From positions 1-18,070 of the IMG/VR virus record IMGVR_UViG_2660238548_000002: a DNA stretch of 18,070 nt; one strand, given 5' to 3'. Below are positions 1,972 to 16,187 of this stretch, one piece after another. The stretch is from a virus. Its lineage: Duplodnaviria > Heunggongvirae > Uroviricota > Caudoviricetes. Within the stretch, counting starts at the first letter, position 1. Each line of letters begins with the position of its first letter. The notes under the pieces were generated by a model, which had not been told where the DNA came from, did no database searches, and saw nothing but the letters and a program-made list of their open reading frames with translations. Made by a program: the position numbers and the translations under genes.

Positions 1972-2964
1972 TTACACCACACGGGCTTCTGTTTCCAGAA
2001 GCGCATCAGTCTCACGGATTGGTACACCACGGAATGAAGTCCACCACTCGCCTTCTGTCTCTTTTACGCTGATCGCCAGAGATGTTTTCTCCAGAGATTG
2101 CAGATCAAGAGCCTGGCCTACAGTGCGGTTCATGTAGAACACCGGGCGGCCCATGCCACGGTTTGGAATGCGATGCAGTGCTTTAACCATCAACTTCGCA
2201 ATATTTGCTGCAGAGGAAGGTTCTGAAAGATTGCTGACATCGATGTTTGCAATGCGAACAACATAACGCCAGTCACGCAGAGCAAGCCCGTTGTCCCATT
2301 TGTAATGGGTACGGTAGCCTTCGTACTTGCCGCCATTCGCATCTTCCAGTGTCACCTGGCCTTTATCTTCCATCTGGATGCCAGCCTTCTGCCCTTTCGG
2401 GAAGATGCCATGCACGGTGTTTTCGCCCCACACCACTAACCAGATAGAGGTGTTATCTGTACCCGTGCCACCAGCATCAATGATGTTCTGAGCATTACCC
2501 GCAGACAGGCTGGAATAGCGGGAGGACAGTCCCATAAACTGCTGAGGGTTAACGCTGGAATCACCATAAAACAGCGTCTGCGCCATCTGCTGATTCATCG
2601 CTTCAATAAATGCGCGGTCTTCAGACAGGCGGAATTCGGCGGTATTGCCGTTCAGATCAGCCAGTGACTTATCGACTTCAGCATAGGTTTCCAGCATGCC
2701 AACGGAATCGGTTACCTGCACTGTGGTTGATTTGCTTGGCTGTACGCCATAGTTCAGCAAACGCCAGGTAGCTGAAGGTAAACCAGAACGAATGGTGGTT
2801 CGGTGTCCGGTAGGAAGGTTCCCTTCGACAAAAGGCATATCCTGAAGGATCGGGTTAGTTTGACCGAGAAGCTCGATAATCTTATCGACTTTCCCGTTTG
2901 GATCGACGCGCTTACCCCAGTCAGCCAGCGTTAGCGCAGTTAAGCCTTTAACAGCCATTGTCAT
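1972..2964 (-). CDS. Major capsid protein (about 330 aa)
   Basis: Follows the scaffold gene in portal-scaffold-capsid order; size typical of T7 gp10-type capsid proteins. The ATG at 2958 has better RBS spacing than the one at 2964. Confidence 0.7.
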   Translation of the reverse strand: MTMAVKGLTALTLADWGKRVDPNGKVDKIIELLGQTNPILQDMPFVEGNLPTGHRTTIRSGLPSATWRLLNYGVQPSKSTTVQVTDSVGMLETYAEVDKSLADLNGNTAEFRLSEDRAFIEAMNQQMAQTLFYGDSSVNPQQFMGLSSRYSSLSAGNAQNIIDAGGTGTDNTSIWLVVWGENTVHGIFPKGQKAGIQMEDKGQVTLEDANGGKYEGYRTHYKWDNGLALRDWRYVVRIANIDVSNLSEPSSAANIAKLMVKALHRIPNRGMGRPVFYMNRTVGQALDLQSLEKTSLAISVKETEGEWWTSFRGVPIRETDALLETEARVV

Positions 2965-2972
2965 TTCCTCTC

Positions 2973-3668
2973 TTATTTGCCATAGAGCACTTCGGCCGCA
3001 CTACGCTGGCCTTCATTACCACCGGTGACCATGCCATCTTCAGACATCGCCTTTCCGATTTTCACGAACGTCTTGACCAGATCAGGGTGATTACCCAGTC
3101 CGGTGGTGTTCAGATATTCTTTGAGCTCAGGTGTCCCGAACTGGTCAAGCGCACGCTGCGCGGCGCTAAGGTTAGAAATCAACTTGTCGCCACCGATTTC
3201 TTTGTCAGCTTTTACATCAGCAGCCCACTGCTCGGTTGTTTTCTGCCAGGCTTCTGCCTGGCGCTGCTGAACACCTGCCAGAATCTTCGGATAAGCATCA
3301 ACCAGCTTTTGCGCTTGCTCGTTGGTCAGGTTTAGTTCTCGCGCCACCGGCTCGAATTCCTTCAACGCTTCTGTATCCAGCTCTACGCCTTCGGCAGCCT
3401 GAAACTCGTACTTCTCAGGCGCACCCTCTGGTTTATCGCCGTCCTTTTTTTCATCCAGCTTATCGTTTTCAGGCTTTTTGTCAGCAGCAGGTTTATCGCC
3501 ATCAGCAACAGGTTGTGGCTTATCACCTTCCTGTTGTGATGGATCACCAACTGGAGCAGGGTTATCACCTGCAGGCGCTGACGGTTCTGACGCAGCCGGA
3601 GCTGCTCCACCATCGACTGGTTGCTCATTGCAAAGACGGCTATACAGCAAACGCTCAAATAAATTCAT
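2973..3668 (-). CDS. Scaffolding protein (acidic, Pro/Ala/Asp/Lys-rich N-terminus, helical C-terminus)
   Basis: Low-complexity acidic composition and position between portal and capsid. ATG at 3668 has AGGAG 5 nt upstream; the listed ORF starts at GTG 3674. Confidence 0.65.
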   Translation of the reverse strand: MNLFERLLYSRLCNEQPVDGGAAPAASEPSAPAGDNPAPVGDPSQQEGDKPQPVADGDKPAADKKPENDKLDEKKDGDKPEGAPEKYEFQAAEGVELDTEALKEFEPVARELNLTNEQAQKLVDAYPKILAGVQQRQAEAWQKTTEQWAADVKADKEIGGDKLISNLSAAQRALDQFGTPELKEYLNTTGLGNHPDLVKTFVKIGKAMSEDGMVTGGNEGQRSAAEVLYGK

Positions 3669-3670
3669 GA

Positions 3671-3967
3671 TCACTCCTGTTCACTGGCCTCTTTGGCCAT
3701 CTTCAAATACTGTTCAGGGCAATGCGCCATAACGCGCTGAAACAGTTCCAGCGCCAGATTGCGTTGCCCCTCATTAAATGCCATTGCCATAGCGTCCATC
3801 GGCGAGATAGCGGAAAACACACGGCCTTTCTCCAGTACCGACCAGACAACCCGACGCCCCTGTTCACAGCTCATGACAAAGCGAATGTCATCAATTTCAC
3901 GCTGTGCCATGTCACGTTGCTTACGGGCGTTTTCTTCTTTCAGTTGATCGTCTTCGTAATCTGTCAT
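3671..3967 (-). CDS. Hypothetical small head-module protein (98 aa)
   Basis: ATG at 3967 overlaps the portal stop (ATGA); its own stop lies 2 nt before the scaffold ATG. Tightly coupled within the operon. Confidence 0.55.
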   Translation of the reverse strand: MTDYEDDQLKEENARKQRDMAQREIDDIRFVMSCEQGRRVVWSVLEKGRVFSAISPMDAMAMAFNEGQRNLALELFQRVMAHCPEQYLKMAKEASEQE

Positions 3968-5643
3968 TGTGATTGCCCACCCTGACCACTAACTGCATTC
4001 GCCATAGCTGACAAAACACTCGGATCCGAAGTTTTAGCTTCGCTTAGCGTCTTGGCCCCCTGTGCCGCCGCCATCCCCATCGCCATCATTTGTTGCTGCT
4101 GTTGCTGCTGTGCCCGTTGCTGGCGAGCCTGCTCAACCTGTTCCTGCGGAACAATGACGGTTGGAGACACTCCGGACATATCAGCGAATGCATCGATCGC
4201 CTGATCAACGTTGAGTTTGTCGAGAGCTTCTGGTTTCGCTTGCGCAAGTTGACCAATGAAGTTAACCGTGGACGCCAGACTGGACAGGCCGATAGACTTC
4301 TGCGCCTGAGCCATGACGGAAATGTATTCGACCTTCAGGGGCATGCCTTCCATCGCGTCAGGCGGTGGCGGCAGCATGTTTTTACGCACCATCATCGAGA
4401 AAGCGCGGTCAATGAGAGGATTAAGACATTCGTCGTTCAGACGCTCCAGAACCGGCCCCAACATCAGAAGTTTTTCTTCTTTCATTTCGATCACCGCTTC
4501 AACAGGCATCGAGCGGGTATTGATGTTCTGCAACATCATGAACAGATCGACAAAGTAGGCGCTGTTAATGATTTGACGAGTGTCCTGAATGTCTGCCACC
4601 AAATCTGCTGTACTGGGGTTAACCAGATAAGCAGGCCTGAAGCCATCCTGACCAGTAATCTGATCGATATACGTGATGTCGCCAGGAAGAAGGGAGGCGC
4701 GCTGATTCTTGAGGGAAGTCGGAGCAACCATCGGCGGATTGGTGGCTTTATCAATCAACTGCGACTTGCGCTTCTGGAGAAGCTGCAATGCCTTAACAGG
4801 TCCAAGCGCCAGCATGCCCGGGCATGATGATCCATAAACATCTTCACCGTTAACTTCCCAGCGCGGAGCCATAATTGGAAACTCATCGAATCCGGACTCA
4901 CGCAACAACTTGTCGTTATCGCCACCAACCTCGTAATAAACCGATTTGAATGGCTTGTTCTTGCTATCCAGCTTCGATGTATCGCGGTCAATGTTCGGGT
5001 AAACCGAATGCATCACGTCAATCCACTTCTCGTAGGTGCCGCTTTCCCACATGCTTTTTACGGATTCGCTGACGTTATTTAGCCCGAACTCCTGAACAAG
5101 CTGACGAACAGTCATAGAGAACTTGCGAAAACAGGTGTCAACACTGCCACGAGGTGAGTTAGCCAGGTAGTAACTGCCTATCGGGAATGGCATTGTGCGA
5201 ATGATGTCCTCATCATCCTCCAGTACCGCCATTGCACCGGTGCTGTATGTGCCGAGGCTTCCGTATAACTGCGGCAGCGACTGATAGAGATTCGACTTAT
5301 TGAACATATCGTTCATGCGGTTCTGCACCGCCTCAAGCCACAACTTAACAGGGCCATAATCCATCATTTCAGGATCTGGCGTAGCCAGGCGAAACCACGG
5401 ACGCGCAGGGCTTGTGATGCCTGACATCATGCCGCTGGCGAGAGTGCGCGCCGCCATAGTCCCGGTCGAATCAATAATGCGTGTATTGCGCCGATCGTTA
5501 CGGTTGGCCTCAGAAGTCAGAAAGCGGGAACCACGCGGGTTGATGTAATCACTCAACTCGCGCCAGTGCGGCTCGAACGACTGACGCTCGCTTTCAAGTT
5601 GTGCGAACTGTTTGTTCAATCGCTCTTTAGTTGTTTCCGCCAT
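3964..5643 (-). CDS. Portal protein, T7 gp8-like head-to-tail connector
   Basis: 559 aa. N-terminal region and the Gln/Ala/Met-rich C-terminal tail resemble recalled T7 gp8. Sits upstream of scaffold and capsid. Confidence 0.75.
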   Translation of the reverse strand: MAETTKERLNKQFAQLESERQSFEPHWRELSDYINPRGSRFLTSEANRNDRRNTRIIDSTGTMAARTLASGMMSGITSPARPWFRLATPDPEMMDYGPVKLWLEAVQNRMNDMFNKSNLYQSLPQLYGSLGTYSTGAMAVLEDDEDIIRTMPFPIGSYYLANSPRGSVDTCFRKFSMTVRQLVQEFGLNNVSESVKSMWESGTYEKWIDVMHSVYPNIDRDTSKLDSKNKPFKSVYYEVGGDNDKLLRESGFDEFPIMAPRWEVNGEDVYGSSCPGMLALGPVKALQLLQKRKSQLIDKATNPPMVAPTSLKNQRASLLPGDITYIDQITGQDGFRPAYLVNPSTADLVADIQDTRQIINSAYFVDLFMMLQNINTRSMPVEAVIEMKEEKLLMLGPVLERLNDECLNPLIDRAFSMMVRKNMLPPPPDAMEGMPLKVEYISVMAQAQKSIGLSSLASTVNFIGQLAQAKPEALDKLNVDQAIDAFADMSGVSPTVIVPQEQVEQARQQRAQQQQQQQMMAMGMAAAQGAKTLSEAKTSDPSVLSAMANAVSGQGGQSQ

Positions 5644-5657
5644 TTCAATGACTCCGG

Positions 5658-5864
5658 TTACTGACCAAGCAGCGTTTTACCGCTGGTATTAGCGGTTGAT
5701 GTGTCGCCCTGAGAACCGGTAAGAAGCGTAGAACTACGACCAGCAGCAGCGCGACGGCGACGTGTTTCTTCGTCGCGGGCATCAACAACGGCGGCATCCT
5801 GCTCCTGTGGTGCTGCCTGAACTTCTGGTGTTGCAGGCACTGATGGTGAGCTACCCATGCACAT
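5658..5864 (-). CDS. Small Ala/Gln/Arg-rich low-complexity protein (68 aa), possibly an internal virion protein
   Basis: ATG at 5864 with GGAG RBS; stop 12 nt before the portal RBS. Resemblance to T7 gp7.3 is from memory and weak. Confidence 0.4.
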   Translation of the reverse strand: MCMGSSPSVPATPEVQAAPQEQDAAVVDARDEETRRRRAAAGRSSTLLTGSQGDTSTANTSGKTLLGQ

Positions 5865-5932
5865 ATCAATGACTCCGTACGCAATTAAATTATTACCAAT
5901 TTAACCACAAATGATTTACCTATCGTAGATAG

Positions 5933-5969
5933 TTGACATTTAACGCACGAATTATTACCTTTCAGGTAA
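5933..5969 (+). promoter_or_regulatory. Candidate promoter (TTGACA at 5933..5938) with a perfect TTACC-N5-GGTAA palindrome at 5955..5969
   Basis: Perfect -35 hexamer, AT-rich -10 region, and a palindrome identical in form to those at the cI/cro region. Points toward the noncoding region and tRNA. Confidence 0.4.
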
Positions 5970-6029
5970 GCAAAGAGTTCATTCCGGTTATTAACCTGAC
6001 TAGCTTGTCGTTAAATTGAACAGGTGGGG

Positions 6030-6290
6030 TGAGATTTTATTTTGAGCAGTACGGCGTATGGCACATGCGCCGATAGCGGTCTGGATACGTTTAAGGGGCA
6101 CTCTCCCTTGCTCTGGCAAACGAACCAGGTAGCCGGGATGTGCAAGTCGAGCGGTTTTATTCCGCGCACGGGGATTCACCATCCCGGCGATTCGGTGTGA
6201 CACCTCGGAAGAGACGAGGGTACAACGATGAGAGCATTTATGGAACCGCGACAAAGTGTGGCGCCTTAACAGGCTAAGTGCTCTCAGCGT
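6030..6290 (+). ncRNA. Candidate structured noncoding RNA upstream of the tRNA (class unknown)
   Basis: No + strand ORF of 60 aa or more across 5885..6753. Contains a perfect 9-bp stem (GCCGGGATG 6131..6139 / CATCCCGGC 6180..6188) and several further hairpins. Confidence 0.25.
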
Positions 6291-6291
6291 T

Positions 6292-6368
6292 GTGGCATTA
6301 GCTCAGTTGGACAGAGCAACCGCCTTCTAAGCGGCTGGTCGCAGGTTCGAATCCTGCATGCCACGCCA
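6292..6368 (+). tRNA. tRNA-Arg (anticodon UCU), 77 nt with encoded CCA
   Basis: Manual fold: 7-bp acceptor stem GTGGCAT/ATGCCAC, D-arm GCTC...GAGC, anticodon loop CTTCTAA, T-arm GCAGG-TTCGAAT-CCTGC, discriminator G then CCA. Pair 27-43 is an A-C mismatch. Confidence 0.9.
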
Positions 6369-6411
6369 GAATCACGCCTAAGGACCGTGATGCCAGAAGT
6401 TCCAGGTGCTT

Positions 6412-6454
6412 GGCGGTGATGGTTTCCATTGAAGGACTATCACCGCCCTTTTTA
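6412..6454 (+). terminator. Intrinsic terminator downstream of the tRNA
   Basis: GGCGGTGAT ... ATCACCGCC stem followed by CTTTTTA. Confidence 0.5.
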
Positions 6455-6531
6455 CAGCAGGACGCCATTGCGATGACTTCATGCTGTAAACCCGTACAGC
6501 CACGGAAGGCATAACTCATTGCTTACAGTTC

Positions 6532-6555
6532 GCCCGGTTCACCGGGCATTTTTTT
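6532..6555 (+). terminator. Intrinsic terminator
   Basis: GCCCGG-TTCA-CCGGGC hairpin followed by ATTTTTTT. Confidence 0.7.
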
Positions 6556-6614
6556 AAGGTGTGAATCATGAAATACGAATTCGATGGATTTTAATGTCGT
6601 GACACGTCACAAAC

Positions 6615-6642
6615 AGCCAGCCGATAAGCTGGCTTTGTTTTA
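6615..6642 (+). terminator. Intrinsic terminator-like hairpin
   Basis: AGCCAGC-CGATAA-GCTGGCT followed by TTGTTTTA. Confidence 0.45.
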
Positions 6643-6697
6643 TCCTCATCAGAGGATATCAACGACATTATCCCCTCATAGGGATACGTTTTTCATA

Positions 6698-6726
6698 ATG
6701 ACCGAAGATTACCTTAAAGGTAGAAT
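6698..6726 (+). promoter_or_regulatory. Candidate promoter of the 246-aa gene (-10 TAGAAT at 6721..6726) overlapped by an operator-like palindrome TTACC-N5-GGTAG at 6709..6723
   Basis: -10 hexamer about 28 nt upstream of the ATG; a weak -35 (ATGACC) at 17-bp spacing; palindrome lies between them. Confidence 0.4.
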
Positions 6727-6753
6727 CAGAAAAAAACCTAAAAGGGCCTGGAC

Positions 6754-7494
6754 ATGCTTGAATCACTTAAAGAATACCTATCTTCAACCGTTAATACCGC
6801 TTCGCAAAGGGTCAGAAATCCAGTGTTTGGAGCGTTCGCACTGTCATGGTGCGCCTTTAACTGGAAGTCGATTTTATACTTACTCCTCAGCGACTCCAGC
6901 ATCATCGACAAGATCACCTACATTTCCAGCAATAGCAGTTGGAAAACGGTATTAGCATTCCCATGTGTTTCAGCAATAATCCTGTGCGGCGGCATGCCCT
7001 GGATCAACAACGTGATTTCAAAGTGGCAAGCCAAACCTCTTGATAATTACGATTCGATAGAGAACCACCGGAAGGCCAAGCGCATTCATCGCGCCACACG
7101 CCTGCAGCGCCTGAAGGCAAAGCACGATGTGACATACGACAAAGTTAAGACTGGCGCCGAAAAAGACATACAGGCTATGAAGGAAAGAATTACGGAGTCA
7201 CAGGCCAGGATGGGTGAGCTAACGTCGGAAAGAGATAGGCTCTCCGATAAGGTTTTGGAATTGAATAAGAAGCTGGAAAACATGCAATCAGTGGCTGCAG
7301 CGTTAAAGATTGAGGCAGAAAAGTCCGCCAGAATGCTTGAAGATAGGGAGGCCAAAATAAATAATCTCATACAAGAATTAAAGGAAAAAGAAAAGGAAAG
7401 TATCGTATTGCATATGGGCCATGAACCCTTGCGAAAAACATATACATCACAGGCTGAGAGAATGATTGCTGAAGCCGTGAAAAATAAGCAATAA
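6754..7494 (+). CDS. Orphan accessory protein: two predicted TM helices at the N-terminus, a basic linker and a long coiled-coil C-terminus (246 aa); function unknown
   Basis: Opposite strand to the late operon, visibly AT-rich, with many AGA/AGG Arg and ATA Ile codons. Its stop (7492..7494) lies 1 nt from the terL stop (7496..7498). Confidence 0.7.
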   Translation: MLESLKEYLSSTVNTASQRVRNPVFGAFALSWCAFNWKSILYLLLSDSSIIDKITYISSNSSWKTVLAFPCVSAIILCGGMPWINNVISKWQAKPLDNYDSIENHRKAKRIHRATRLQRLKAKHDVTYDKVKTGAEKDIQAMKERITESQARMGELTSERDRLSDKVLELNKKLENMQSVAAALKIEAEKSARMLEDREAKINNLIQELKEKEKESIVLHMGHEPLRKTYTSQAERMIAEAVKNKQ

Positions 7495-7495
7495 A

Positions 7496-8971
7496 TCACG
7501 CAAACGGGTCGTAATCTGTGATGGCCTTGCCTTGCTGGTTCTGCTGACCGGGAATTCGCAGGCGCTTCGACACAGGGAAAGCAAACGTCAGCAATAGCGC
7601 ATCGCCTTTCCCCGGCGAACGCCCAAGTCGTTCTTTGATATCTTCCTTCGGTTCGATAACGATTTTACCGTCCACGCGAACTTTGTACTCTGCCGTCGAC
7701 AGGTCGTCCGCTGTTTCCTGGTCATCCAGCATACCGCCCAGCCTCAGCCATGTCTTACATGAGTTGAACATCTCCCCACGCTTGTTGAGCATCTGCGGGT
7801 CAGTAGACGCGCCACCGAACGGAACAAGTTGCCATGTACGTCCCCAGCCATCACCGATTGACTTCAAACCGGTTCCGTAACCGAAGTCGATGAATACCGC
7901 GTCAGCCTGATACTTGTCTTCAAAGTCAGCGATGCGCTTCGCCATAATCAGATCGTCAGTGGTCTTGTTGCCAGTCCACAGCACCTTACTGTGCAGCCCC
8001 TGCCGCAGGTATATCACAGCGTCATCAACGCCGGAGTATGCCGGGTCAACGCCGATTATCACCGGAGCATGTGCCACCTGCGCAGCAGTTACCACCCGTT
8101 TCATTGCCTCGTCAGTAAGGCCGGTAGGGATAAACTGCAATTCAGATGCATCAGGGAATATGCCGCGCACACGGATTTTAACGAAGTCGCTGTCTTCCCC
8201 GTAGTCATCAACCCATTTCTGCAACTGCTGTTTGTTAGTGCCTTCCACCGTCCGGCTGTCAATCTGCGCAGTTTTCCAGCGGTGTTTATATTTGCGGAAA
8301 CATTCGCGGAAACGTCCGGTATTACGCGTCGGGTTTCCGAACGCCACCCAGATAATCTCAGTGTCTTCGTCCGTAAGCGCCCCCTCGGCAACTTCCCACA
8401 CCAGATCCGCAATGTTCGACGCTTCATCAAACACCACGATGATGCGTTTGCGCTCGTTGTGTAGTCCGGCGAATGCCTCGGTGTTGTGCTCAGACCAGGG
8501 GATTGCGTCAGCTCGCCACCGCTTGTCGTGCCCAGGATCATTGCTGTACATCGCGGTAGCGGTACAGGTAAACCAGTCTTTCGTGATAGCAAGGTTCGAC
8601 CACTTGATAATTTCCGGCCAGGTCTTCGTTCGTAGCTGGTTGTCGGTGTTGGCGGTCACCACGACCTTACAATCCTCGCAAGTGGACATGCCCCAGTTGA
8701 TCAGCATTGAGATGAATGCGGATTTACCAATACCGTGACCAGAAGCGCGTGCCAGCATAAGCGGCTGATAGCGCGTCTCTGGATTCTGCAGGTGATCACG
8801 TATCTCTCGGAACGCATCAGCCTGCCACTGACGTGGGCCGGTAGCATGTGCCAGTTCAGTCCCCTCTTCCCCCCAAGGGAACGCATAGAGGGCATAGCCA
8901 AGCGGATCGTGAGTGAACCCTGCAATATCCTCGATTAACTGCTCTTCAGGAGATAACGCTGTATCTGTCAC
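7496..8971 (-). CDS. Terminase large subunit
   Basis: 491 aa with Walker A-like SGHGIGKS near the N-terminus and a C-terminal nuclease-like region. GTG start overlaps the terS stop (GTGA); immediately downstream of terS. Confidence 0.85.
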   Translation of the reverse strand: MTDTALSPEEQLIEDIAGFTHDPLGYALYAFPWGEEGTELAHATGPRQWQADAFREIRDHLQNPETRYQPLMLARASGHGIGKSAFISMLINWGMSTCEDCKVVVTANTDNQLRTKTWPEIIKWSNLAITKDWFTCTATAMYSNDPGHDKRWRADAIPWSEHNTEAFAGLHNERKRIIVVFDEASNIADLVWEVAEGALTDEDTEIIWVAFGNPTRNTGRFRECFRKYKHRWKTAQIDSRTVEGTNKQQLQKWVDDYGEDSDFVKIRVRGIFPDASELQFIPTGLTDEAMKRVVTAAQVAHAPVIIGVDPAYSGVDDAVIYLRQGLHSKVLWTGNKTTDDLIMAKRIADFEDKYQADAVFIDFGYGTGLKSIGDGWGRTWQLVPFGGASTDPQMLNKRGEMFNSCKTWLRLGGMLDDQETADDLSTAEYKVRVDGKIVIEPKEDIKERLGRSPGKGDALLLTFAFPVSKRLRIPGQQNQQGKAITDYDPFA

Positions 8972-9564
8972 TGATTGCCATCCTGACGTTCTTTGAGTCG
9001 CTTCCTGGCTGCTGCTATGCGATCAGCAATTGTCACATTCACATTAACATCCAAGCGTTCTTTGAATGCGTTGACGTCGACGTGCTTACCAATCAGTTCG
9101 AGGTTCTTCACCTTGTCAGGCCATTTAATTTTTTTGAGGATTGTCTCTATCGAATCCTCGTTCATGTTCATGATGGTCGATGACAGATCAAAGCCGCTAA
9201 GCGTAGTGCGCCAGATTTTCGGCCACTCACGGATTGGTTTAAGGCTCCCATCGTCGTTGAGGATGTCGATCACGTCCATCTGGTCGATCTCCACTAGGCG
9301 CATGAGAACGTAATCAGCACTGACGCGCATTCGTTTGTTGCGCTCCTCCATCAACTCGGCAATCCGTTTTTGAATGCGTTCATCGCGCATCATGACACTG
9401 GCTTTAACTGCCGCTGTATTTGGGGAGAATCCTGCGTTAATCGCTGCCTGAGTCTGGTTTTCAGGCGTTTTGATGTATGACTGGCAATAAGCCTCCTGCA
9501 TTGCTGTGAGCGGCTTAAATTGCGTTGATTTGCGTTTATAGGTTTTAGGTTCAGCAGGCATCAT
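8968..9564 (-). CDS. Terminase small subunit
   Basis: Family-typical N-terminal LTAMQEAYCQSY...NAGFSPNTAAVKAS. Start placed at ATG 9564 (GGTGG upstream); the listed ORF's further extension (TITTTVTITT) runs through a terminator and repeats. Confidence 0.75.
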   Translation of the reverse strand: MMPAEPKTYKRKSTQFKPLTAMQEAYCQSYIKTPENQTQAAINAGFSPNTAAVKASVMMRDERIQKRIAELMEERNKRMRVSADYVLMRLVEIDQMDVIDILNDDGSLKPIREWPKIWRTTLSGFDLSSTIMNMNEDSIETILKKIKWPDKVKNLELIGKHVDVNAFKERLDVNVNVTIADRIAAARKRLKERQDGNQ

Positions 9565-9571
9565 AACCACC

Positions 9572-9602
9572 GTGGTAATAGTTACCGTTGTGGTAATAGT
9601 AA
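9572..9602. repeat. Two 13-bp direct repeats GTGGTAATAGT(T/A)A 18 bp apart, just upstream of the terS start
   Basis: Read directly from the sequence; the first copy forms the palindrome GGTAATAGTTACC. Candidate packaging or regulatory site. Confidence 0.5.
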
Positions 9603-9606
9603 CATG

Positions 9607-9633
9607 CAAAATAAAGCCGCCATAGTTGGCGGC
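9607..9633 (-). terminator. Intrinsic terminator immediately upstream of terS
   Basis: On the minus strand: GCCGCCA-ACTA-TGGCGGC followed by TTTATTTTG, in the 75-bp gap between the 70-aa gene and terS. Confidence 0.65.
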
Positions 9634-9638
9634 AGTAT

Positions 9639-9851
9639 TCAAAGTCCATCAAATTCATCGTAAAAACTCTCGTCAAGATACCCTTCCCATTTACCGCGAA
9701 TGAAAATTACATCCTCGCCGCAAGGGTGCTGACTGTCGATAACTATATCCCTCCTGGCGCAACCATACTTATGCATGAGAAATTTAACCTCTTTCGGAAA
9801 ATTTGCTGAGTTATCTCTCATATCTTCAAGGTCGTAGCGTATTTTTGGCAT
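9639..9851 (-). CDS. Hypothetical small protein (70 aa)
   Basis: ATG at 9851 with GAGGTG RBS directly upstream; the listed ORF extends to 9866. Confidence 0.5.
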   Translation of the reverse strand: MPKIRYDLEDMRDNSANFPKEVKFLMHKYGCARRDIVIDSQHPCGEDVIFIRGKWEGYLDESFYDEFDGL

Positions 9852-9867
9852 AACACCTCGTGACATG

Positions 9868-10206
9868 TCACACTATTAATTTCGTTTCATGCCAGCCTTT
9901 GGTCACCCAGCATTGCGAGTCACCATTACACGGGCATGAATTCACAGGAACTCTCTCGCCGCACTTACCGCAACGTTTTCTGCTGATCGATTTTATACGC
10001 CCGCGCACGCGTGCATCATCCTGGCGGATCAGTAACGCTATATACTCACCAAATTCGTAAGGCGCACGCCCGGGGCGACGTGTGGCACAGTTACGCTCCA
10101 GCATTTCAATTTCCTGAGCATCAAGCACAATCTCCAGCTTACGTACACCGGATTCAGCTTGTCTGGCTCTCTGAGCGGCTTTGCGCTCTGCTGCTGATTT
10201 AGCCAT
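9868..10206 (-). CDS. Hypothetical protein (112 aa) with a basic N-terminus and a C-terminal Cys4 zinc-ribbon (CGKCG...CPC)
   Basis: ATG at 10206, 2 nt after the upstream stop. Function unknown; a regulatory role is only a guess from position. Confidence 0.5.
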   Translation of the reverse strand: MAKSAAERKAAQRARQAESGVRKLEIVLDAQEIEMLERNCATRRPGRAPYEFGEYIALLIRQDDARVRGRIKSISRKRCGKCGERVPVNSCPCNGDSQCWVTKGWHETKLIV

Positions 10207-10480
10207 CAATATTCACCTTTATCGCGAACACCTTTACCGGTTTATCGCCGAAGTGGGGATGTGTGATTGTCTTGATTTCATATCCGTCATACGGAATATC
10301 AATTCTGCGGCTGGAATCGTCGCGCTTCGGATATCCCTTTGTGATAATCAGGCGGTCATACTCCCGGAACATAATTCGCTTATTCCAATAGTCATTACAC
10401 AGGCGATACTCCTCGGTTTTCTCGCCACGAATCATGGCATCGAAGTATTCACCTTTTACGGCAAGTTGCAGGTTAGCCAC
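10199..10480 (-). CDS. ASCH/DUF3850-like small protein (93 aa)
   Basis: GTG start with AGGAGG 7 nt upstream. N-terminal LQLAVKGEYFDAMIRGEKTEEYR resembles the recalled DUF3850/ASCH pattern. Confidence 0.45.
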   Translation of the reverse strand: MANLQLAVKGEYFDAMIRGEKTEEYRLCNDYWNKRIMFREYDRLIITKGYPKRDDSSRRIDIPYDGYEIKTITHPHFGDKPVKVFAIKVNIDG

Positions 10481-10757
10481 GACCTTCCTCCTTTGGCTTG
10501 TGAATTTGTATCGTCATGCCGCTTTGAGTGGTGACTACAATGACAGAACCAGGCTGAAGGCTGTTAAGATTGAATGCTTCGTAAAACGAATCCAATGCCA
10601 GTGCTTTTTTATTCTTTCGGTTCCACCAACGCCATCCCTTGCTACAGGCTACACTGACAATCCACTGCCCACTCCTGTAAGCCATATAAAACCAGATGAG
10701 CAAAACCTGAAGGAAGGCCATCCAGTCAATAATCGTATATTTCGCGAAGGAGTCCAT
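10473..10757 (-). CDS. Small membrane protein (94 aa) with one hydrophobic helix
   Basis: ATG at 10757 overlaps the upstream TGA (TGATG) and has a strong AGGAGGT RBS. Hydrophobic segment YTIIDWMAFLQVLLIWFYMAY. Confidence 0.55.
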   Translation of the reverse strand: MDSFAKYTIIDWMAFLQVLLIWFYMAYRSGQWIVSVACSKGWRWWNRKNKKALALDSFYEAFNLNSLQPGSVIVVTTQSGMTIQIHKPKEEGRG

Positions 10758-11329
10758 CAATTCACCTCCTGCGGCGGTTCTGGTAGCGGCATCCAGAACA
10801 AGACGTTCCCTAACCACGATAAAGTGCCGTCGCTCAACTCCACGTATTCCCCTTGTACCTGTCCTGCCATATACTCGCCGTGCTTTGAATAAATTAAAAT
10901 CCAATCATCTTGAGCGGGCATTCGCTCACTACAGCTTATCCAACCATCCGGAGTTACCGGAGAGTTGCCCGATAGCTCGTTCAACTTGTAAGTCTGGCTT
11001 ACAAGTTCGGCTTCCAATTCTGCTATGCGCTTCTCTGATGCTTCCAGCTCAACACGCAGCTTCCCTACCGTTAGCGCAATATCCTCGTTCTCCTGGTCGC
11101 GGCGTTTGATGTATTGCTGGTTTCTTTCCCGTTCATCCAGTAGTGCCAGCACGGTTTCTGGTCCGGCCAGAAGTTTGAAGGCGTTGAGCGCATCAATATC
11201 CACACCGTAATCTTTAAGTTCCTGTTCACTTAACAAATCATCATCAACTGGCAACATTAACAGGCGTTCCATTGCCGGAATTGCACGTTCTGCCGCCATT
11301 CGCAGTGCCTGATAGTCAATCTTGCTCAC
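10757..11329 (-). CDS. Ea22/Ead-like protein with a C-terminal DUF551-type domain (190 aa)
   Basis: GTG start with AAAGGAGG RBS. C-terminal W...FWMPLPEPP resembles the DUF551 signature common in lambdoid early regions. Confidence 0.5.
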   Translation of the reverse strand: MSKIDYQALRMAAERAIPAMERLLMLPVDDDLLSEQELKDYGVDIDALNAFKLLAGPETVLALLDERERNQQYIKRRDQENEDIALTVGKLRVELEASEKRIAELEAELVSQTYKLNELSGNSPVTPDGWISCSERMPAQDDWILIYSKHGEYMAGQVQGEYVELSDGTLSWLGNVLFWMPLPEPPQEVN

Positions 11330-11982
11330 TGGTTGCCTCCTTTTCGAAGCTCTGCGGCAAAGTCAGTGGCATGTTCACCGAGTAGTTTCCAGTTATCGCG
11401 TATATCAGATGCAAATGACTGTTCGGATTTTGAGTTACATTTCTGTGCAAACATCTCCAATCCCTGCGCCCGCACTTCAGCCAGGCATTTGCGAAACTCG
11501 GAAACGTACTGTTCGACGCTCATTCCCCAGCTAAGTGGACATTCATTGAATGTTTCGCCTTCGTGCTCTTCATCAGGTAGCTCTTTGGTAAAGAACTCAC
11601 GCTCAATGGCGTGGAGTGTGTCAGCAAAACGACGTAAGTTACTCAAACCTACCGTAATGGAGAATTCAGGAGCATCACATCCGACGCCCATCTGCTGATA
11701 AACGGCGGTTTTGAAGGCCTTCAGCGCCGCATTCTCCGCTGCCAGCTCCGAAAACTTCTCGTGTGCCAACTTAACAGCTGCATCAGCCTGCTTAATTGAC
11801 TCAATCGCTTTCTGCTGGTCTTCGGCCAGCGCATTAGCACGCACCAGTTGCACTTCCAGTTGCGTTGCCAAATCGCTGATCAGCTTTGCCACGCTGCGCA
11901 TATCAACGGCACCACATTCTGCTTTCAGTTCCGAAGCCATCTCATGCCCGGCGGTAACTAACCCTTTGATATTACAGTCCAT
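11326..11982 (-). CDS. Hypothetical coiled-coil protein (218 aa)
   Basis: ATG at 11982 with GAGGG RBS. No recognisable domain. Confidence 0.5.
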   Translation of the reverse strand: MDCNIKGLVTAGHEMASELKAECGAVDMRSVAKLISDLATQLEVQLVRANALAEDQQKAIESIKQADAAVKLAHEKFSELAAENAALKAFKTAVYQQMGVGCDAPEFSITVGLSNLRRFADTLHAIEREFFTKELPDEEHEGETFNECPLSWGMSVEQYVSEFRKCLAEVRAQGLEMFAQKCNSKSEQSFASDIRDNWKLLGEHATDFAAELRKGGNQ

Positions 11983-12027
11983 CTTTACCCTCGCTTATCC
12001 ACATAACTTATTGATTACATTGATAAC

Positions 12028-12055
12028 TAAAAAGATCGTCGATTCATGCCGATCT
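12028..12055 (-). terminator. Possible intrinsic terminator overlapping the HNH gene stop
   Basis: AGATCG ... CGATCT stem flanked by an A-tract and a T-tract; the 11-nt loop makes it weak. Confidence 0.3.
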
Positions 12056-12652
12056 ATTTTTCATCAGTGATTCATAAAACTTTTGCCACTTATGCCGACC
12101 GAAATTAGCCTTCGAGTTACAGCTCGAACAAAGGCAAATAAGGTTCTCCTGACGACAGTCTTGCTTGTCGTAATTGATGTGATGAGTTGTTAGCCTTTTG
12201 TCTGTTCCATCACAACCTGGGTTCTGACAAGTAAAACCATCTCGCTCAATAACCCTCTTGCTCGTTTCTCGGAAATCCCACGGATACGGCAATCTCGATA
12301 ATCCACCAGACCAGTTTGGATTTCCTTCCCCCTTCATCAGAGAAGAACGCATTATGTTGGAACACTGTTTCGAGCAGCATTTATGACGCTTCTCATGACT
12401 CAAGAAAACGGAGAACGAAGATCCGCATACGCAGCATATTTTTAATACTCGCTTTAGTTCCCGATTTACCGTCTTGCCTCGCTGTGAAATTCCTACACAC
12501 TGAAGTGAGCAGAACCTTGAAGATGAGTTGGCTCGCTTAACCTGATATTGCCTGCCACATACGGGGCAAACCTTTTCGATTTTCCCACCCTTCCAATTCG
12601 GGTTTTTATCACCGGATACAATCAATCCCGCAGCATTGGGCTTCTCGCTCAT
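12044..12652 (-). CDS. HNH homing-type endonuclease with duplicated NPNW(K/S)GG modules (202 aa)
   Basis: C-terminal HHINYDK...ENLICLCSSCN is an HNH motif; two NPNWxGG repeats. AT-rich. ATG at 12652 overlaps the upstream stop (ATGA). Confidence 0.8.
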   Translation of the reverse strand: MSEKPNAAGLIVSGDKNPNWKGGKIEKVCPVCGRQYQVKRANSSSRFCSLQCVGISQRGKTVNRELKRVLKICCVCGSSFSVFLSHEKRHKCCSKQCSNIMRSSLMKGEGNPNWSGGLSRLPYPWDFRETSKRVIERDGFTCQNPGCDGTDKRLTTHHINYDKQDCRQENLICLCSSCNSKANFGRHKWQKFYESLMKNRSA

Positions 12653-13002
12653 AGTTCCTCAACCTCCCATCCACCACCGAGCTTTTTAGGTTTTGGATAA
12701 GCAACCTGAAAGACAAACGGATAGCTGTCTGCCGCAACCTTCATCTTGACTCTCGCATCGTCAGTAAAGACTGACTTACTTCCCTTAACGTCCACCATCA
12801 CCAACTGCCCGTCAGCCAACATCACGGCAAAATCTACAGTCAGGAAGCAGTTGTCAGCCAGCCGCAGCTTGATACCCTCGAACCGATACCAGGCGACTTC
12901 CCCTGCACGTTTACGCTGCTCAAGGTGCTGGCAATACGCAGATTCTGTTTTGTTCATCTGGCCTGTTTTGAGTCGACCAAGAGCCTGTATCTGTTTTCTC
13001 AT
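12649..13002 (-). CDS. DUF1064-like phage protein (117 aa)
   Basis: Pattern ...YRFEGIKLRLADNCFLTVDFAVM...VDVKG resembles recalled DUF1064. Translationally coupled to the HNH gene. Confidence 0.45.
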   Translation of the reverse strand: MRKQIQALGRLKTGQMNKTESAYCQHLEQRKRAGEVAWYRFEGIKLRLADNCFLTVDFAVMLADGQLVMVDVKGSKSVFTDDARVKMKVAADSYPFVFQVAYPKPKKLGGGWEVEEL

Positions 13003-13005
13003 GAT

Positions 13006-13082
13006 TTACCTCTAAGGTAATTAAAAACCACATAAGGCACAAAATCAATAGATCTAAGAATATTTTGTTACCCATTGGGTAA
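13006..13082. promoter_or_regulatory. Two perfect TTACC-N5-GGTAA palindromes (13006..13020 and 13068..13082) upstream of the DUF1064 gene
   Basis: The first palindrome starts 4 nt upstream of the ATG and contains the RBS; the second lies about 60 bp further upstream. Confidence 0.5.
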
Positions 13083-13119
13083 TTATTGAGGCGTAAAAAA
13101 ATGCGCTATCGCGCTGGTA

Positions 13120-13920
13120 TTACTTGATAAATCCTGCTGCCTTTCCTCGCCTGTATTCCTCCATCAGCCACTGCGCCGGTGTTATTCCCCCCAGGGTGGC
13201 GGCGTTAGGCATGCACCCGAAACTTCGCCCTGGTGGATGGTAAACGTCTCTCCCTGTGTCCGGAGGTGTACTCATGGGTTCTGGCTTTGCCTGTATGCTG
13301 ATCACCGGATCGGGTATCTGCTGTCCGGAAGCCACCTTTTTCGCCCAATCATCGAGCAACCTGCGCGCGTGTTTCTCAACCTCAATCTCGCTAAGCTGGC
13401 GCTGATACATTGCACGGCGGGTATCACATACGACCCAGTACATAACCGGATGTCGCCACGGGAATCTTTCGGGACCACCAGGATATAAACTTTTTTCCTT
13501 GCTGTACCGGTGAAACTCCGCCATCACATCGTCAATGGTGACGCCAAGAACCATCTTGCTGTCTTTACACCACTTGATGAATTGCCCTGGCGACGGCCAG
13601 AACGGAGATTCACTGGCGCGGGCGTGGCGCATACCAGCAGAAACCTGTTCACGGGTTCGGATCCCCCCTTCGGCAAACGCAGCAATCCACTGCTGTTTTG
13701 CAGCAACTTCCTGCTCTGGCGTCTTCAGGTTGGTTACCACTGCCGCCGGAAACAGTTGTTTCAGCTGTTTGAAAAGGGCATCAACAAGCCTCTCTGCTGA
13801 CATGTTCACCACGTTGTCATTGTTGGTGTACTGATGCTCATAACCTGACATGCGAGAAAGGGCTTCTCCGTCACGGTTTTGTATCGCGGTAAAAACGTTG
13901 TTCACAAGAAATCCTCCCAT
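13120..13920 (-). CDS. Lambda P-like replication protein (helicase loader)
   Basis: Central QWIAAFAEGGIRTREQVSAGMRHAR...PFWPSPGQFIKWC aligns with the recalled lambda P region RRQWVLAFRENGITTMEQVNAGMRVAR...PFLPSPGQFVAWC. Strong GGAGGA RBS. Confidence 0.8.
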   Translation of the reverse strand: MGGFLVNNVFTAIQNRDGEALSRMSGYEHQYTNNDNVVNMSAERLVDALFKQLKQLFPAAVVTNLKTPEQEVAAKQQWIAAFAEGGIRTREQVSAGMRHARASESPFWPSPGQFIKWCKDSKMVLGVTIDDVMAEFHRYSKEKSLYPGGPERFPWRHPVMYWVVCDTRRAMYQRQLSEIEVEKHARRLLDDWAKKVASGQQIPDPVISIQAKPEPMSTPPDTGRDVYHPPGRSFGCMPNAATLGGITPAQWLMEEYRRGKAAGFIK

Positions 13921-14717: not shown

Positions 14718-14732
14718 GATTAATCTCCGCTA

Positions 14733-14933
14733 TCAGCTTGAATGTTGTGGGGAGGAATTAATCATGATCTGCTTAATCTCTGCCCTGATGCGACGGTTTG
14801 ATTCCATGGTGCACTCAACACAGTGTCCGTTGTAAACCCAGCGTTCACTGTCATGTCCGTGCTTACATGATTTTCCGGTGTAGTAGCGTTTAAGTCCGCG
14901 CTTTGCGGCATCAATACGTGTAATGATTTCCAT
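14733..14933 (-). CDS. Small Cys/His-rich zinc-finger protein (66 aa) in the cII position
   Basis: ATG at 14933; motif CKHGHD...HCVEC. Sits between the cro-like gene and the O-like gene; function unknown. Confidence 0.4.
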   Translation of the reverse strand: MEIITRIDAAKRGLKRYYTGKSCKHGHDSERWVYNGHCVECTMESNRRIRAEIKQIMINSSPQHSS

Positions 14934-15037
14934 GGTAAGCCCTGTTATTAGTATTGGGATTACGGTTATTTTGTGCTGACACAAAAAAAAGATCAACCAG
15001 ATTTGGTTTTTTATTACCTTTAAGGTGCGAATAGATA

Positions 15038-15350: not shown

Positions 15351-15413
15351 TCACCCATAAGGTAACAAAAATCAAGGATAGTTACCTATGGGGTGCATTT
15401 ACCTGTTGGGTAA
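15351..15413. promoter_or_regulatory. Divergent immunity promoter region with three operator-like sites (15351..15365, 15382..15396, 15399..15413)
   Basis: Lies between the divergent cro-like and cI-like starts. Three TTACC-N5-GGTAA family palindromes, echoing an OR1-OR3 layout. Confidence 0.6.
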
Positions 15414-16110: not shown

Positions 16111-16187
16111 TTACCTAATGGGTAATTTTTTTAACTCATATCTATTGACATCAAACCAGATACGCATAATTATTACCTAAACGGTAA
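16111..16187 (+). promoter_or_regulatory. pL-like early promoter (TTGACA at 16145..16150) flanked by two perfect TTACC-N5-GGTAA operators (16111..16125 and 16173..16187)
   Basis: Perfect -35 hexamer and AT-rich -10 region; one operator upstream and one overlapping the start region, upstream of the + strand early genes. Confidence 0.55.

What the first reader, a model, noticed from the sequence alone, without database searches (positions are those of the whole stretch)
6754..7494. Orphan 246-aa membrane/coiled-coil gene inserted antisense between terL and portal
A single + strand gene sits inside an otherwise minus-strand packaging and head operon. It is AT-rich and its promoter region carries an operator-like palindrome. 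It uses many rare AGA/AGG Arg and ATA Ile codons (AGA or AGG at 7 of the Arg codons inspected by hand). Its stop codon lies 1 nt from the convergent terL stop with no terminator between. The protein has two predicted TM helices followed by a long coiled coil and matches no family I can name. This is the classic signature of a moron with a host-directed or phage-directed function, such as superinfection exclusion or abortive infection.
Basis: partly seen in the sequence, partly recalled or inferred. Interest (0 to 1): 0.75.

Follow-up and report, generated by a model that had tools for sequence, protein, structure and literature searches.

The report
Swappable membrane-anchored coiled-coil phage cargo gene
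A real, horizontally swapped accessory gene of a phiV10/epsilon15-like E. coli prophage encodes a membrane-anchored coiled-coil protein of an uncharacterised family that sits in accessory-gene hotspots of several temperate phage types, and its promoter carries the phage's own repressor-type operator; it is a good but untested candidate for a phage-versus-phage exclusion gene.

Summary
It is not an orphan. It matches phrog_4780 (E 1e-88), has over 200 homologs in Enterobacteriaceae, and 295 50%-identity clusters match at E<1e-10. None matches Pfam, PADLOC, NCBIfam or PDB beyond coiled-coil noise.

The window is a phiV10/epsilon15-like (Uetakevirus) prophage. Against phiv142-3, bases ~6678-7499 are an 822-bp insertion in a variable tRNA-Arg/terL hotspot. 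In E. coli this hotspot is empty, holds unrelated cargo, or holds at least five alleles of this family (28-65% identity).

Relatives sit as lone antisense genes in lambdoid prophages and a phage-plasmid, in the validated P2 gpA-portal defence hotspot, and beside CBASS on Klebsiella plasmids.

The protein has a conserved module (two TM helices, basic stretch, stalk base; dN/dS 0.09) and a non-homologous, swappable coiled-coil tail.

New here: the promoter palindrome (TTACC-N5-GGTA, overlapping the -10) is one of 11 such sites in the window (0.34 expected), including the clusters flanking the repressor gene. Expression is therefore probably tied to the phage switch.

An exclusion or abortive-infection role is plausible but untested.

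The parts
6754..7494 (+). CDS, 246 aa plus stop: membrane-anchored coiled-coil protein, member of phrog_4780
   Evidence: ORF list and translation. phrog_4780 E 1e-88. The conserved module gives dN/dS 0.09 between two alleles.
6754..7233 (+). Conserved N-terminal module (residues 1-160): amphipathic helix 2-20, TM1 23-45 (kink at invariant N36), short loop helix 50-60, TM2 from 64, basic juxtamembrane stretch 104-125, and the base of the stalk up to the 'MGELT' motif
   Evidence: Mean pairwise identity is 77% among 39 homologs. Invariant residues come from A1/A3/A5. AF2 model pLDDT 91.5.
6820..6888 (+). Hydrophobic helix 1 (residues 23-45), carrying the family motif NP..GAF..SW..FNW
   Evidence: KD peak is 1.31 in this protein and the family mean is 1.48. 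W32 and N36 are invariant in 70 diverse members.
6943..7005 (+). Hydrophobic helix 2 (residues 64-84), continuous with the long stalk helix
   Evidence: KD peak 1.95. The AF2 model shows one helix spanning residues 63-245.
7063..7128 (+). Basic juxtamembrane segment (residues 104-125, NHRKAKRIHRATRLQRLKAKHD)
   Evidence: Net charge after TM2 is +3.4 to +5 across the family, whereas the TM1-TM2 loop is acidic. The positive-inside rule therefore gives an N-in/C-in topology.
7234..7491 (+). Variable C-terminal coiled-coil tail (residues 161-246)
   Evidence: Mean pairwise identity is 17%. In 54 pairs the N-module is >85% identical while the tail is <25% identical. Heptad periodicity. No tblastn match in phages.
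6698..6726 (+). Predicted sigma-70 promoter: -35 ATGACC (6698-6703), 17-nt spacer, -10 TAGAAT (6721-6726)
   Evidence: Promoter scan. The promoter is conserved in cassettes from seven phages (A4).
6709..6723 (.). Operator-type palindrome TTACC-TTAAA-GGTA(G), lying in the spacer and overlapping the -10
   Evidence: Pattern search: 11 sites in the window against 0.34 expected. The site is present in 7 of 8 Uetakevirus-resident alleles of the family.
6742..6746 (+). Shine-Dalgarno-like AAGGG, 7 nt upstream of the ATG
   Evidence: Read directly from the sequence.
6678..7499 (.). Segment present here but absent from the 'empty' site of phage phiv142-3; it holds the cassette (promoter, operator and gene)
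   Evidence: blastn and alignment against L003.
6292..6368 (+). tRNA-Arg (anticodon UCU), a conserved neighbour of the hotspot; it reads AGA
   Evidence: ARAGORN, Rfam, RefSeq annotation.
6412..6686 (+). Four + strand terminator-like hairpins (6412-6447, 6532-6547, 6615-6634, 6669-6686) between the tRNA and the cargo promoter. 6598-6675 matches the segment immediately 3' of phiV10 gene gp03 (92% identity), including its hairpin.
   Evidence: Terminator scan. blastn to phiV10.
7496..8971 (-). Large terminase subunit gene, convergent with the cargo gene and abutting it
   Evidence: ORF list. Annotated as terminase large subunit in phiV10 and relatives.
5956..5968 (.). Operator-type site TACCTTTCAGGTA, between the hotspot and the small ORF and portal genes
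   Evidence: The site is conserved at the same place in phiV10, phiv142-3, BUCT711, EC.W1-9, pHL15EC-2 and a Yersinia prophage.
9583..9595 (.). Operator-type site just upstream of the short terS start
13007..13081 (.). Two operator-type sites (13007-13019, 13069-13081) in the gap after the replication-P gene
15015..15027 (.). Operator-type site in the gap after the cro-like gene
15352..15412 (.). Three operator-type sites (15352, 15383, 15400) between the divergent cro-like gene (15084-15314, -) and the HTH repressor gene (15469-16053, +)
   Evidence: The repressor has an HTH_3 domain. The region is 98% identical to phiV10 and ZX5.
16112..16186 (.). Two operator-type sites (16112, 16174) after the repressor gene, around a TTGACA promoter for the + strand early operon

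Best explanation
The gene is swappable accessory cargo of a Uetakevirus prophage. It encodes an inner-membrane protein whose most likely job is phage-versus-phage conflict, either exclusion or abortive infection of competing phages.

Shown:
- It is a real gene under strong purifying selection.
- It lies in a variable hotspot between tRNA-Arg and terL.
- It has its own promoter.
- It belongs to a large uncharacterised family found almost only on temperate phages and other mobile elements.

Inferred, protein anatomy:
- Two transmembrane helices place both ends in the cytoplasm.
- TM2 runs straight on as a helix of about 180 residues, whose first third is conserved.
- The distal coiled coil is replaced wholesale between alleles.
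- I read the conserved membrane module as the anchor or effector, and the swappable cytoplasmic tail as the specificity element that meets a component of an incoming or replicating phage at the inner membrane.

Inferred, regulation:
- A 15-bp palindrome of the same form as the prophage's own immunity-region operators overlaps the -10.
- The phage repressor (and/or Cro) would then gate the promoter. Expression would be low in the stable lysogen and rise when repression is lifted at induction or on fresh infection.
- Convergent late transcription through terL could later shut the gene off.
- In lambdoid hosts that lack this operator system, the same cassette would be constitutive.
For: Insertion and hotspot:
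- An 822-bp segment is absent from phiv142-3.
- phiV10 carries a Gp49-family gene instead.
- 507 E. coli genomes share the flanks with at least 8 different span classes.
- At least five diverged alleles of this family (28-65% identity) sit between flanks that are about 95% identical.
- About 15 of 59 evenly sampled prophages carry one, judged by span class.

Recurrence on mobile elements:
- As a lone antisense gene in Klebsiella and Yersinia Uetakeviruses.
- As a lone antisense gene in four lambdoid prophages, between the replication genes and ninB.
- As a lone antisense gene in an SSU5-like phage-plasmid.
- Distant members lie in the gpA-portal hotspot of two P2-like prophages. That hotspot carries old/tin and validated defence systems (PMC9122126).
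- Another member lies directly after a DUF1778/GNAT toxin-antitoxin pair and about 2 kb from a type II CBASS operon on Klebsiella plasmids.

Protein:
- The N-module is 77% identical on average and the tail 17%; 54 pairs combine >85% with <25%.
- dN/dS is 0.09 for the N-module.
- AF2 pLDDT is 91.5, with one helix spanning residues 63-245.
- Heptad signal.
- The charge pattern indicates N-in/C-in.

Regulation:
- TACC-N5-GGTR occurs at 11 sites against 0.34 expected. Three lie between the cro-like and repressor genes and two lie after the repressor gene.
- The immunity region is 98% identical to ZX5, whose repressor shuts off lytic transcription when overexpressed (PMC9782041).
- The site overlaps the -10 in 7 of 8 Uetakevirus alleles of the family, including a 28%-identical one. 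No such site was found at the cargo position in the phiV10 (Gp49 cargo) or empty loci.
Against: - No experiment bears on function.
- No homology was found to any known exclusion or defence protein. The Pfam, PADLOC, NCBIfam, PDB-sequence and fold searches returned only coiled-coil noise.
- Hotspot and island neighbourhood is guilt by association. Phage hotspots also carry non-defence cargo.
- A cytoplasmic tail is not what one expects of a periplasm-facing injection blocker.
- If the repressor really silences the promoter in lysogens, the protein cannot protect a quiescent lysogen. That weakens the classical superinfection-exclusion reading.
- Binding of the repressor to the palindrome is inferred from sequence alone.
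- The palindrome also persists in 2 of 4 lambdoid-resident copies whose resident phages lack such operators. It might therefore serve another purpose.
- The topology rests on hydropathy and the positive-inside rule, and TM1 is only weakly hydrophobic in this allele.
Confidence: 0.45

Rival explanations
1. Classical lysogen-expressed moron. The gene is transcribed constitutively from the prophage, and its product blocks DNA entry of superinfecting phages at the inner membrane, as P22 SieA or HK97 gp15 do.
For: It has its own promoter, an antisense orientation, AT-richness and accessory status. It is predicted to be an inner-membrane protein. In lambdoid hosts nothing matching the palindrome lies in the immunity region, so expression there would be constitutive. 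A single isolated operator may repress only weakly.
Against: An operator-type site overlaps the -10 in Uetakevirus hosts. The variable, presumably specificity-bearing part is predicted to be cytoplasmic rather than periplasmic. There is no similarity to SieA, SieB or Imm-type families.
Confidence: 0.2
2. A non-defensive helper for the phage's own lytic cycle. Examples would be a membrane anchor that organises replication or packaging (as phi29 p16.7 does: TM, coiled coil, then a C-terminal binding domain), or a modulator of lysis timing or membrane state.
For: Probable control by the phage switch would make it an early lytic gene. The TM plus long coiled-coil architecture fits a scaffold. It sits among packaging genes.
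Against: It is missing from many otherwise ~95%-identical phages, including viable isolates such as phiv142-3 and phiV10. The tail is replaced by unrelated sequence between alleles. Relatives occur in unrelated phage types, on plasmids and in a validated defence hotspot.
Confidence: 0.15
3. A host-directed lysogenic-conversion factor that acts on the host's membrane stress response, cell division or fitness in the gut rather than on phages.
For: It is membrane-anchored cargo carried by prophages of enteric bacteria from animals and humans. Function is unknown.
Against: The wholesale tail replacement and deep allelic divergence between near-identical flanks look like an arms race with a variable partner rather than interaction with a conserved host target. 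The ZX5 study found no host phenotype from lysogeny by a related phage, but that phage carries different cargo at this site (PMC9782041).
Confidence: 0.1
4. The transcript is what matters. Read-through from the cargo promoter into terL, with no terminator, gives antisense RNA that damps leaky late-gene expression, and the protein is secondary.
For: The stop abuts terL in most alleles and no strong terminator follows. Lambda sieB has the same geometry against N.
Against: Strong purifying selection on the protein (dN/dS 0.09). The family is conserved in contexts with other downstream genes. One allele has a 211-nt gap before terL.
Confidence: 0.05

Closest known systems
Lambda/P22 SieB (superinfection exclusion protein B, Pfam PF14163)
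   Same: - A single accessory gene set antisense inside a long phage operon. In lambda its stop directly abuts the convergent N stop.
- Two N-terminal hydrophobic helices are followed by a strongly basic juxtamembrane stretch and a helical cytoplasmic part.
- It acts in phage-versus-phage conflict: it halts lytic growth of other lambdoid/P22-like phages (PMC10883804).
   Different: - No detectable homology: no Pfam hit at E<=1, and hhalign probability is 0.8%.
- SieB is shorter (184 aa as annotated) and has no long coiled coil or swappable tail.
- No immunity-type operator is known to me in its promoter.
P22 SieA
   Same: A prophage-encoded inner-membrane protein that is sufficient on its own to exclude related short-tailed phages. 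Its extant types are highly diverged, <30% identical (PMC10883804).
   Different: SieA is 162-164 aa with three predicted TM helices and no coiled coil. It is expressed from the prophage. No sequence similarity was detected in the family scans.
Cargo of the P2 gpA-portal hotspot (old, tin and other validated systems; Rousset et al. 2022)
   Same: Variable single- or few-gene cargo next to the packaging and portal genes of a temperate phage. Two distant members of this family sit in exactly that P2 hotspot.
   Different: The hotspot here lies in a different phage genus, between tRNA-Arg and terL. This family was not among the systems named in the passages of that paper that I read.
Morons in the sense of Hendrix and colleagues (e.g. 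HK97 gp15, lambda bor/lom)
   Same: An extra gene absent from relatives, with its own promoter and deviant base composition, lying between genes of an essential operon.
   Different: It has no terminator of its own. The promoter carries a phage-operator-type site, so autonomous expression from the repressed prophage, which is part of the usual definition, is doubtful.
Mycobacteriophage L5/Bxb1 'stoperators' (from my own knowledge, not checked here)
   Same: Many copies of the repressor's binding site are scattered through intergenic gaps along the genome, in addition to the sites at the early promoters.
   Different: The sites here are symmetric 15-bp palindromes, far fewer in number, and in an enterobacterial podophage. 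Repressor binding has not been shown.

Membership tests
phrog_4780 (phage protein family of unknown function) | Significant match to the family profile over most of its length | tested here: met
   E 1.1e-88, residues 1-219 against profile 1-215 of 275. Related profiles phrog_13369, 35327 and 24478 match more weakly.
SieB (PF14163) | Sequence or profile homology to SieB | tested here: not met
   No Pfam hit at E<=1. hhalign of the 70-sequence family alignment against lambda SieB gives probability 0.8%.
SieB (PF14163) | Two N-terminal membrane helices followed by a cytoplasmic C-terminal part | tested here: met
   Hydropathy and charge analysis for this family. The lambda SieB sequence was read directly. 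This is an architectural resemblance only.
SieB (PF14163) | Aborts lytic growth of superinfecting phages midway through the cycle | not testable with these tools
   Requires infection experiments.
SieA-type injection blockers | Small polytopic inner-membrane protein (three TM helices, about 160 aa) that blocks DNA entry | tested here: not met
   Two hydrophobic helices and a helix of about 180 residues. The SieA description comes from PMC10883804. The DNA-entry phenotype is not testable here.
Moron (Hendrix definition) | Gene absent from close relatives, inserted between conserved genes | tested here: met
   Absent from phiv142-3 and many E. coli prophages.
Moron (Hendrix definition) | Own promoter and own terminator | tested here: inconclusive
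   A promoter is predicted and conserved. No terminator follows the gene.
Moron (Hendrix definition) | Expressed from the repressed prophage | not testable with these tools
   The operator-type site over the -10 argues that it may not be. RNA-seq of the lysogen is needed.
Known anti-phage defence systems (PADLOC-DB v2.0.0) | Match of the protein, or of diverse family members, to a defence-protein profile outside the coiled-coil region | tested here: not met
   Only LmuB/JetC/PbeC coiled-coil segments match, at E 5e-4 or weaker for this protein. The same holds for 70 family members.
Defence-hotspot or defence-island cargo | Family members located in validated defence hotspots or within a few genes of known systems | tested here: met
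   P2-like gpA-portal hotspot in two prophages. About 2 kb from a type II CBASS operon and directly adjacent to a DUF1778/GNAT pair on pGN-2 and pkle02. This applies to relatives, not to the window gene itself.
Repressor-controlled phage promoter | Operator of the same sequence form as the immunity-region operators, overlapping the core promoter | tested here: met
   TTACC-N5-GGTA at 6709-6722 overlaps the -10. Ten other sites exist, including clusters on both sides of the repressor gene.
Repressor-controlled phage promoter | Repressor or Cro binds the site and changes transcription | not testable with these tools
   Requires EMSA or footprinting and reporter assays.

The most novel reading that the evidence does not exclude
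This would be the first described member of a large, previously unrecognised family of modular inner-membrane phage-conflict proteins. Each has a conserved two-helix membrane module with a stalk base, plus a cassette-swapped cytoplasmic coiled-coil 'reader'. The family spreads between hotspots of at least four temperate phage lineages. In Uetakeviruses it is plugged into the phage's own repressor/operator network, so it would be armed only when the prophage wakes up or a phage genome first enters the cell. That would make it a lytic-phase exclusion or abortive module rather than a lysogen-expressed one.
Probability: 0.25. Interest if true: 0.7.

Novelty: new member of a known kind. Interest (0 to 1): 0.5.

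Why it matters
If the family proves to act against phages, it would add a widespread single-gene, membrane-based system with no relative among catalogued defence genes. Its conserved and swappable halves make specificity directly testable by tail swaps.

It also defines a so-far undescribed cargo hotspot (tRNA-Arg/terL) in a prophage genus present in about 9% of complete E. coli genomes (507 of 5426).

Finally, it points to an operator network (11 TTACC-N5-GGTAA sites) that reaches beyond the immunity region to the packaging, head and cargo promoters. That would change how 'moron' expression is assumed to work in these phages.

Tried and rejected
Protein-family and structure searches:
- Pfam, NCBIfam and PADLOC on the protein and on 70 diverse relatives gave only coiled-coil noise.
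- The PDB sequence-profile search gave the same noise.
- The afdb50 library was unavailable.
- Homology to lambda SieB was rejected.

Literature:
- No paper mentions phrog_4780 or WP_194874439.
- The DefensePredictor supplements contain no matching sequence.
- Brenes & Laub 2025 is not held.
- No held paper describes epsilon15/phiV10 operators.

Leads that went nowhere:
- LF82 transcriptome: prophage Gally is P22-like and carries no member. I could not link the Cyrano 'coiled-coil' moron CYRAN_102 to this family.
- The variable tail has no tblastn match in 50,697 phage records, so there is no evidence for a mimicry or decoy origin.
- Small ORFs upstream of the members in P2-like and Vibrio loci are not homologous to each other, so they are not a conserved partner.
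- Rfam found nothing in 5600-7700 except the tRNA.
Full report
**What the window is.** The region matches phiV10/epsilon15-like podophages (genus Uetakevirus) and prophages in 507 of 5426 complete E. coli genomes. The stretch around the finding is 99.8% identical to E. coli UTME-12. On the minus strand lie the capsid genes, the portal gene (3964-5643), a small ORF (5658-5864), terL (7496-8971), terS (8968-9642) and the replication genes. An HTH repressor gene (15469-16053, +) and a cro-like gene (15084-15314, -) diverge from each other.

**Checking the observation.**
- The ORF at 6754-7494 (+, 246 aa) exists and is annotated in RefSeq as a hypothetical protein.
- Its GC content is 44.5%, against 51-54% in its neighbours.
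- 9 of 15 Arg codons are AGA or AGG and 5 of 18 Ile codons are ATA, against almost none in the structural genes.
- One base separates its stop from the terL stop, and no convincing terminator follows.
- It is not the only + strand feature: a tRNA-Arg(UCU) sits at 6292-6368.
- It is not an orphan. It matches phrog_4780 at E 1e-88.
- It has more than 200 homologs in E. coli, Klebsiella, Enterobacter, Citrobacter, Salmonella, Cronobacter and others.
- A profile search of 1.84 billion cluster representatives finds 295 clusters at E<1e-10, reaching Yersinia, Pantoea and Vibrio.

**It is cargo in a hotspot.**
- Compared with phage phiv142-3, window bases ~6678-7499 are an 822-bp insertion that replaces about 11 bp.
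- phiV10 instead carries a 123-aa Gp49-family gene, inserted at a different point of the same gap.
- Across E. coli genomes the interval between the tRNA and terL comes in at least eight length classes.
- I inspected one representative of each of several classes. They held a 139-140-aa protein, the Gp49-family gene, both together, or diverged members of this same family: 272, 282, 233 and 201 aa, at 57, 59, 28 and 41% identity.
- By span class, about 15 of 59 evenly sampled prophages carry a family member.
- The flanks are about 95% identical, whereas synonymous sites between alleles are saturated (pS about 0.9). Old alleles are therefore being swapped into young backbones.

**Where relatives live.** Every context I looked at is a mobile element.
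- The same terL-portal junction in a Klebsiella phage, a circularised E. coli phage genome and a Yersinia prophage.
- A lone antisense gene between the replication genes and ninB in four lambdoid or lambdoid-like prophages of Klebsiella, Enterobacter and Salmonella.
- A lone antisense gene in an SSU5-like phage-plasmid.
- The gpA-portal gap of two P2-like prophages. This is the hotspot that holds old/tin and several experimentally validated anti-phage systems (PMC9122126).
- Klebsiella plasmids, directly after a DUF1778/GNAT toxin-antitoxin pair and about 2 kb from a type II CBASS operon.
- A small Vibrio island flanked by recombinases.

**The protein.**
- With a 70-sequence alignment, AlphaFold gives a confident all-helical model (pLDDT 91.5). 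It has helix 2-20, helix 23-45 with a kink at N36, a short helix 50-60, and then one unbroken helix from residue 63 to 245.
- The two hydrophobic helices are hydrophobic across the whole family.
- The N-tail is slightly positive, the 18-residue loop is acidic, and the 40 residues after TM2 carry a net charge of +3 to +5. This pattern indicates both termini in the cytoplasm.
- Residues 130-222 show significant heptad periodicity.
- Among 39 homologs, residues 1-160 are on average 77% identical and the remainder 17%. In 54 pairs the first part is over 85% identical while the tail is under 25%.
- The conserved part gives dN/dS 0.09 between two alleles, and the tails cannot be aligned.
- The tails are therefore replaced rather than merely diverged.
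- No library recognises the conserved module. The tested sources were Pfam, NCBIfam, PADLOC, PDB sequences, BFVD and PDB folds.

**The promoter and its palindrome.**
- A sigma-70-like promoter (ATGACC, 17 nt, TAGAAT) lies at 6698-6726. It is conserved in cassettes from seven phages.
- The palindrome TTACCTTAAAGGTA lies in the spacer and overlaps the -10.
- A search for TACC-N5-GGTR finds 11 distinct sites in the window against 0.34 expected:
  - three between the cro-like and repressor genes;
  - two after the repressor gene, around a TTGACA promoter for the + strand early operon;
  - single sites in the gaps after the cro-like gene (one) and after the replication-P gene (two);
  - one just upstream of the short terS start;
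  - one between the hotspot and the portal-side genes;
  - the cargo promoter itself.
- The immunity region is 98% identical to that of phage ZX5. Overexpressing the ZX5 repressor abolishes lytic transcription (PMC9782041).
- The simplest reading is that these are the repressor/Cro operators and that the cargo promoter is one of their targets.
- The site is present at the same position in 7 of 8 Uetakevirus-resident alleles, including the 28%-identical one, whose promoter sequence is otherwise different.
- At the hotspot in the phiV10 (Gp49 cargo) and phiv142-3 (empty) loci, the pattern search finds no such site.
- In lambdoid-resident copies the site is intact in two and decayed in two, and those phages have no such sites in their immunity regions. 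This fits an origin in Uetakeviruses and loss of constraint after transfer, but four cases are few.

**What it most likely does.** Function cannot be computed here. The following features all fit a gene engaged in conflict with other phages:
- accessory status;
- deep allelic diversity between near-identical flanks;
- wholesale tail swapping;
- exclusive residence on mobile elements;
- presence of relatives in a validated defence hotspot and beside CBASS.

I propose that the conserved membrane module is the anchor or effector and that the cytoplasmic tail is the specificity element. The operator suggests expression is low in the quiet lysogen and rises when repression is lifted. Convergent late transcription through terL would be a possible later off-switch. 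These steps are all inferred. I put 0.45 on this overall account.

**Closest known analogue.** Lambda/P22 SieB is the nearest in design. It is an antisense single gene whose stop abuts the convergent N stop in lambda. It has two N-terminal membrane helices, a basic juxtamembrane stretch and a helical cytoplasmic part. Profile comparison shows no homology, so this protein may work like SieB but is not a member of that family.

**Rivals.**
- A helper for the phage's own cycle, such as a membrane scaffold like phi29 p16.7 (0.15).
- A host-directed conversion factor (0.1).
- An antisense-RNA role for the read-through transcript (0.05).

**Verdict.** The sequence observations are sound. 'Orphan' is wrong. 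'Moron with an exclusion function' is plausible but unproven, and its regulatory picture needs revising. This is a new, uncharacterised family within a known kind of element (phage hotspot cargo). It is of moderate interest and readily testable.

Noticed in passing
window 5956, 6710, 9583, 13007, 13069, 15015, 15352, 15383, 15400, 16112, 16174: Eleven copies of a 15-bp palindrome (TTACC-N5-GGTAA; 0.34 expected) are spread over nearly every major intergenic gap of the prophage, not only the immunity region. The layout recalls mycobacteriophage 'stoperators'. It suggests the repressor touches the packaging, head and cargo promoters directly.
   Followed up: partly
window 6292-6368 (+): A tRNA-Arg(UCU) is conserved next to the hotspot in all related prophages, whatever the cargo. 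AGA/AGG codons are common in the cargo gene (9 of 15 Arg) and in several early genes (e.g. 13902-14717: 9 of 14), but nearly absent from structural genes. The tRNA may therefore support early and accessory gene expression.
   Followed up: partly
window 6548-6677; L002 (phiV10) 3648-3725: The stretch between the 6532-6547 hairpin and the cargo promoter matches the segment immediately 3' of gp03 in phiV10, including its hairpin. It is also present at the 'empty' site of phiv142-3. The empty site may be a deletion remnant and the window locus a composite. The phiV10 record annotates this hairpin as a minus-strand terminator, but its T-run is on the + strand.
   Followed up: partly
E. coli loci L022, L023; phiV10 L002 3273-3644: Alternative cargo at the same hotspot: a 123-aa 'Gp49 family protein' (phiV10 gp03, noted as similar to Sf6 gene 66) and an unrelated 139-140-aa hypothetical protein, sometimes both in tandem. 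Their functions were not examined.
   Followed up: no
window 8968-9642 (-), site at 9583-9595: The long terS ORF (224 aa, TTG start) contains an operator-type site 47-59 nt inside it. Relatives annotate a shorter terS (197 aa) that would start just downstream of the site, so the short start is probably the real one.
   Followed up: no
window 6298-6519 (-) and 6584-6955 (+): Two mechanical ORFs overlap real features. The first overlaps the tRNA gene and is annotated in phiV10 as gp04. The second overlaps the cargo promoter and the 5' end of the cargo gene. Both are probably spurious.
   Followed up: no
L024 (K. pneumoniae plasmid pGN-2) 5998-7054: On many large conjugative Klebsiella plasmids the family member is cut short by an IS1 insertion after about 100 codons. 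An intact 287-aa copy exists on plasmid pkle02 (L025).
   Followed up: partly
window about 9900-15000 versus L001 (E. coli UTME-12): The coordinate offset between the window and UTME-12 shifts by about 448 bp between terS and the replication genes. The window is therefore not collinear with that strain throughout, and the early region is mosaic.
   Followed up: no
L016 (phage lambda) 1983-2537 (+) versus 2538-2939 (-): In the lambda reference record, sieB ends at the base immediately before the stop of the convergent N gene. This is the same abutting convergent geometry seen for the cargo gene and terL here.
   Followed up: partly
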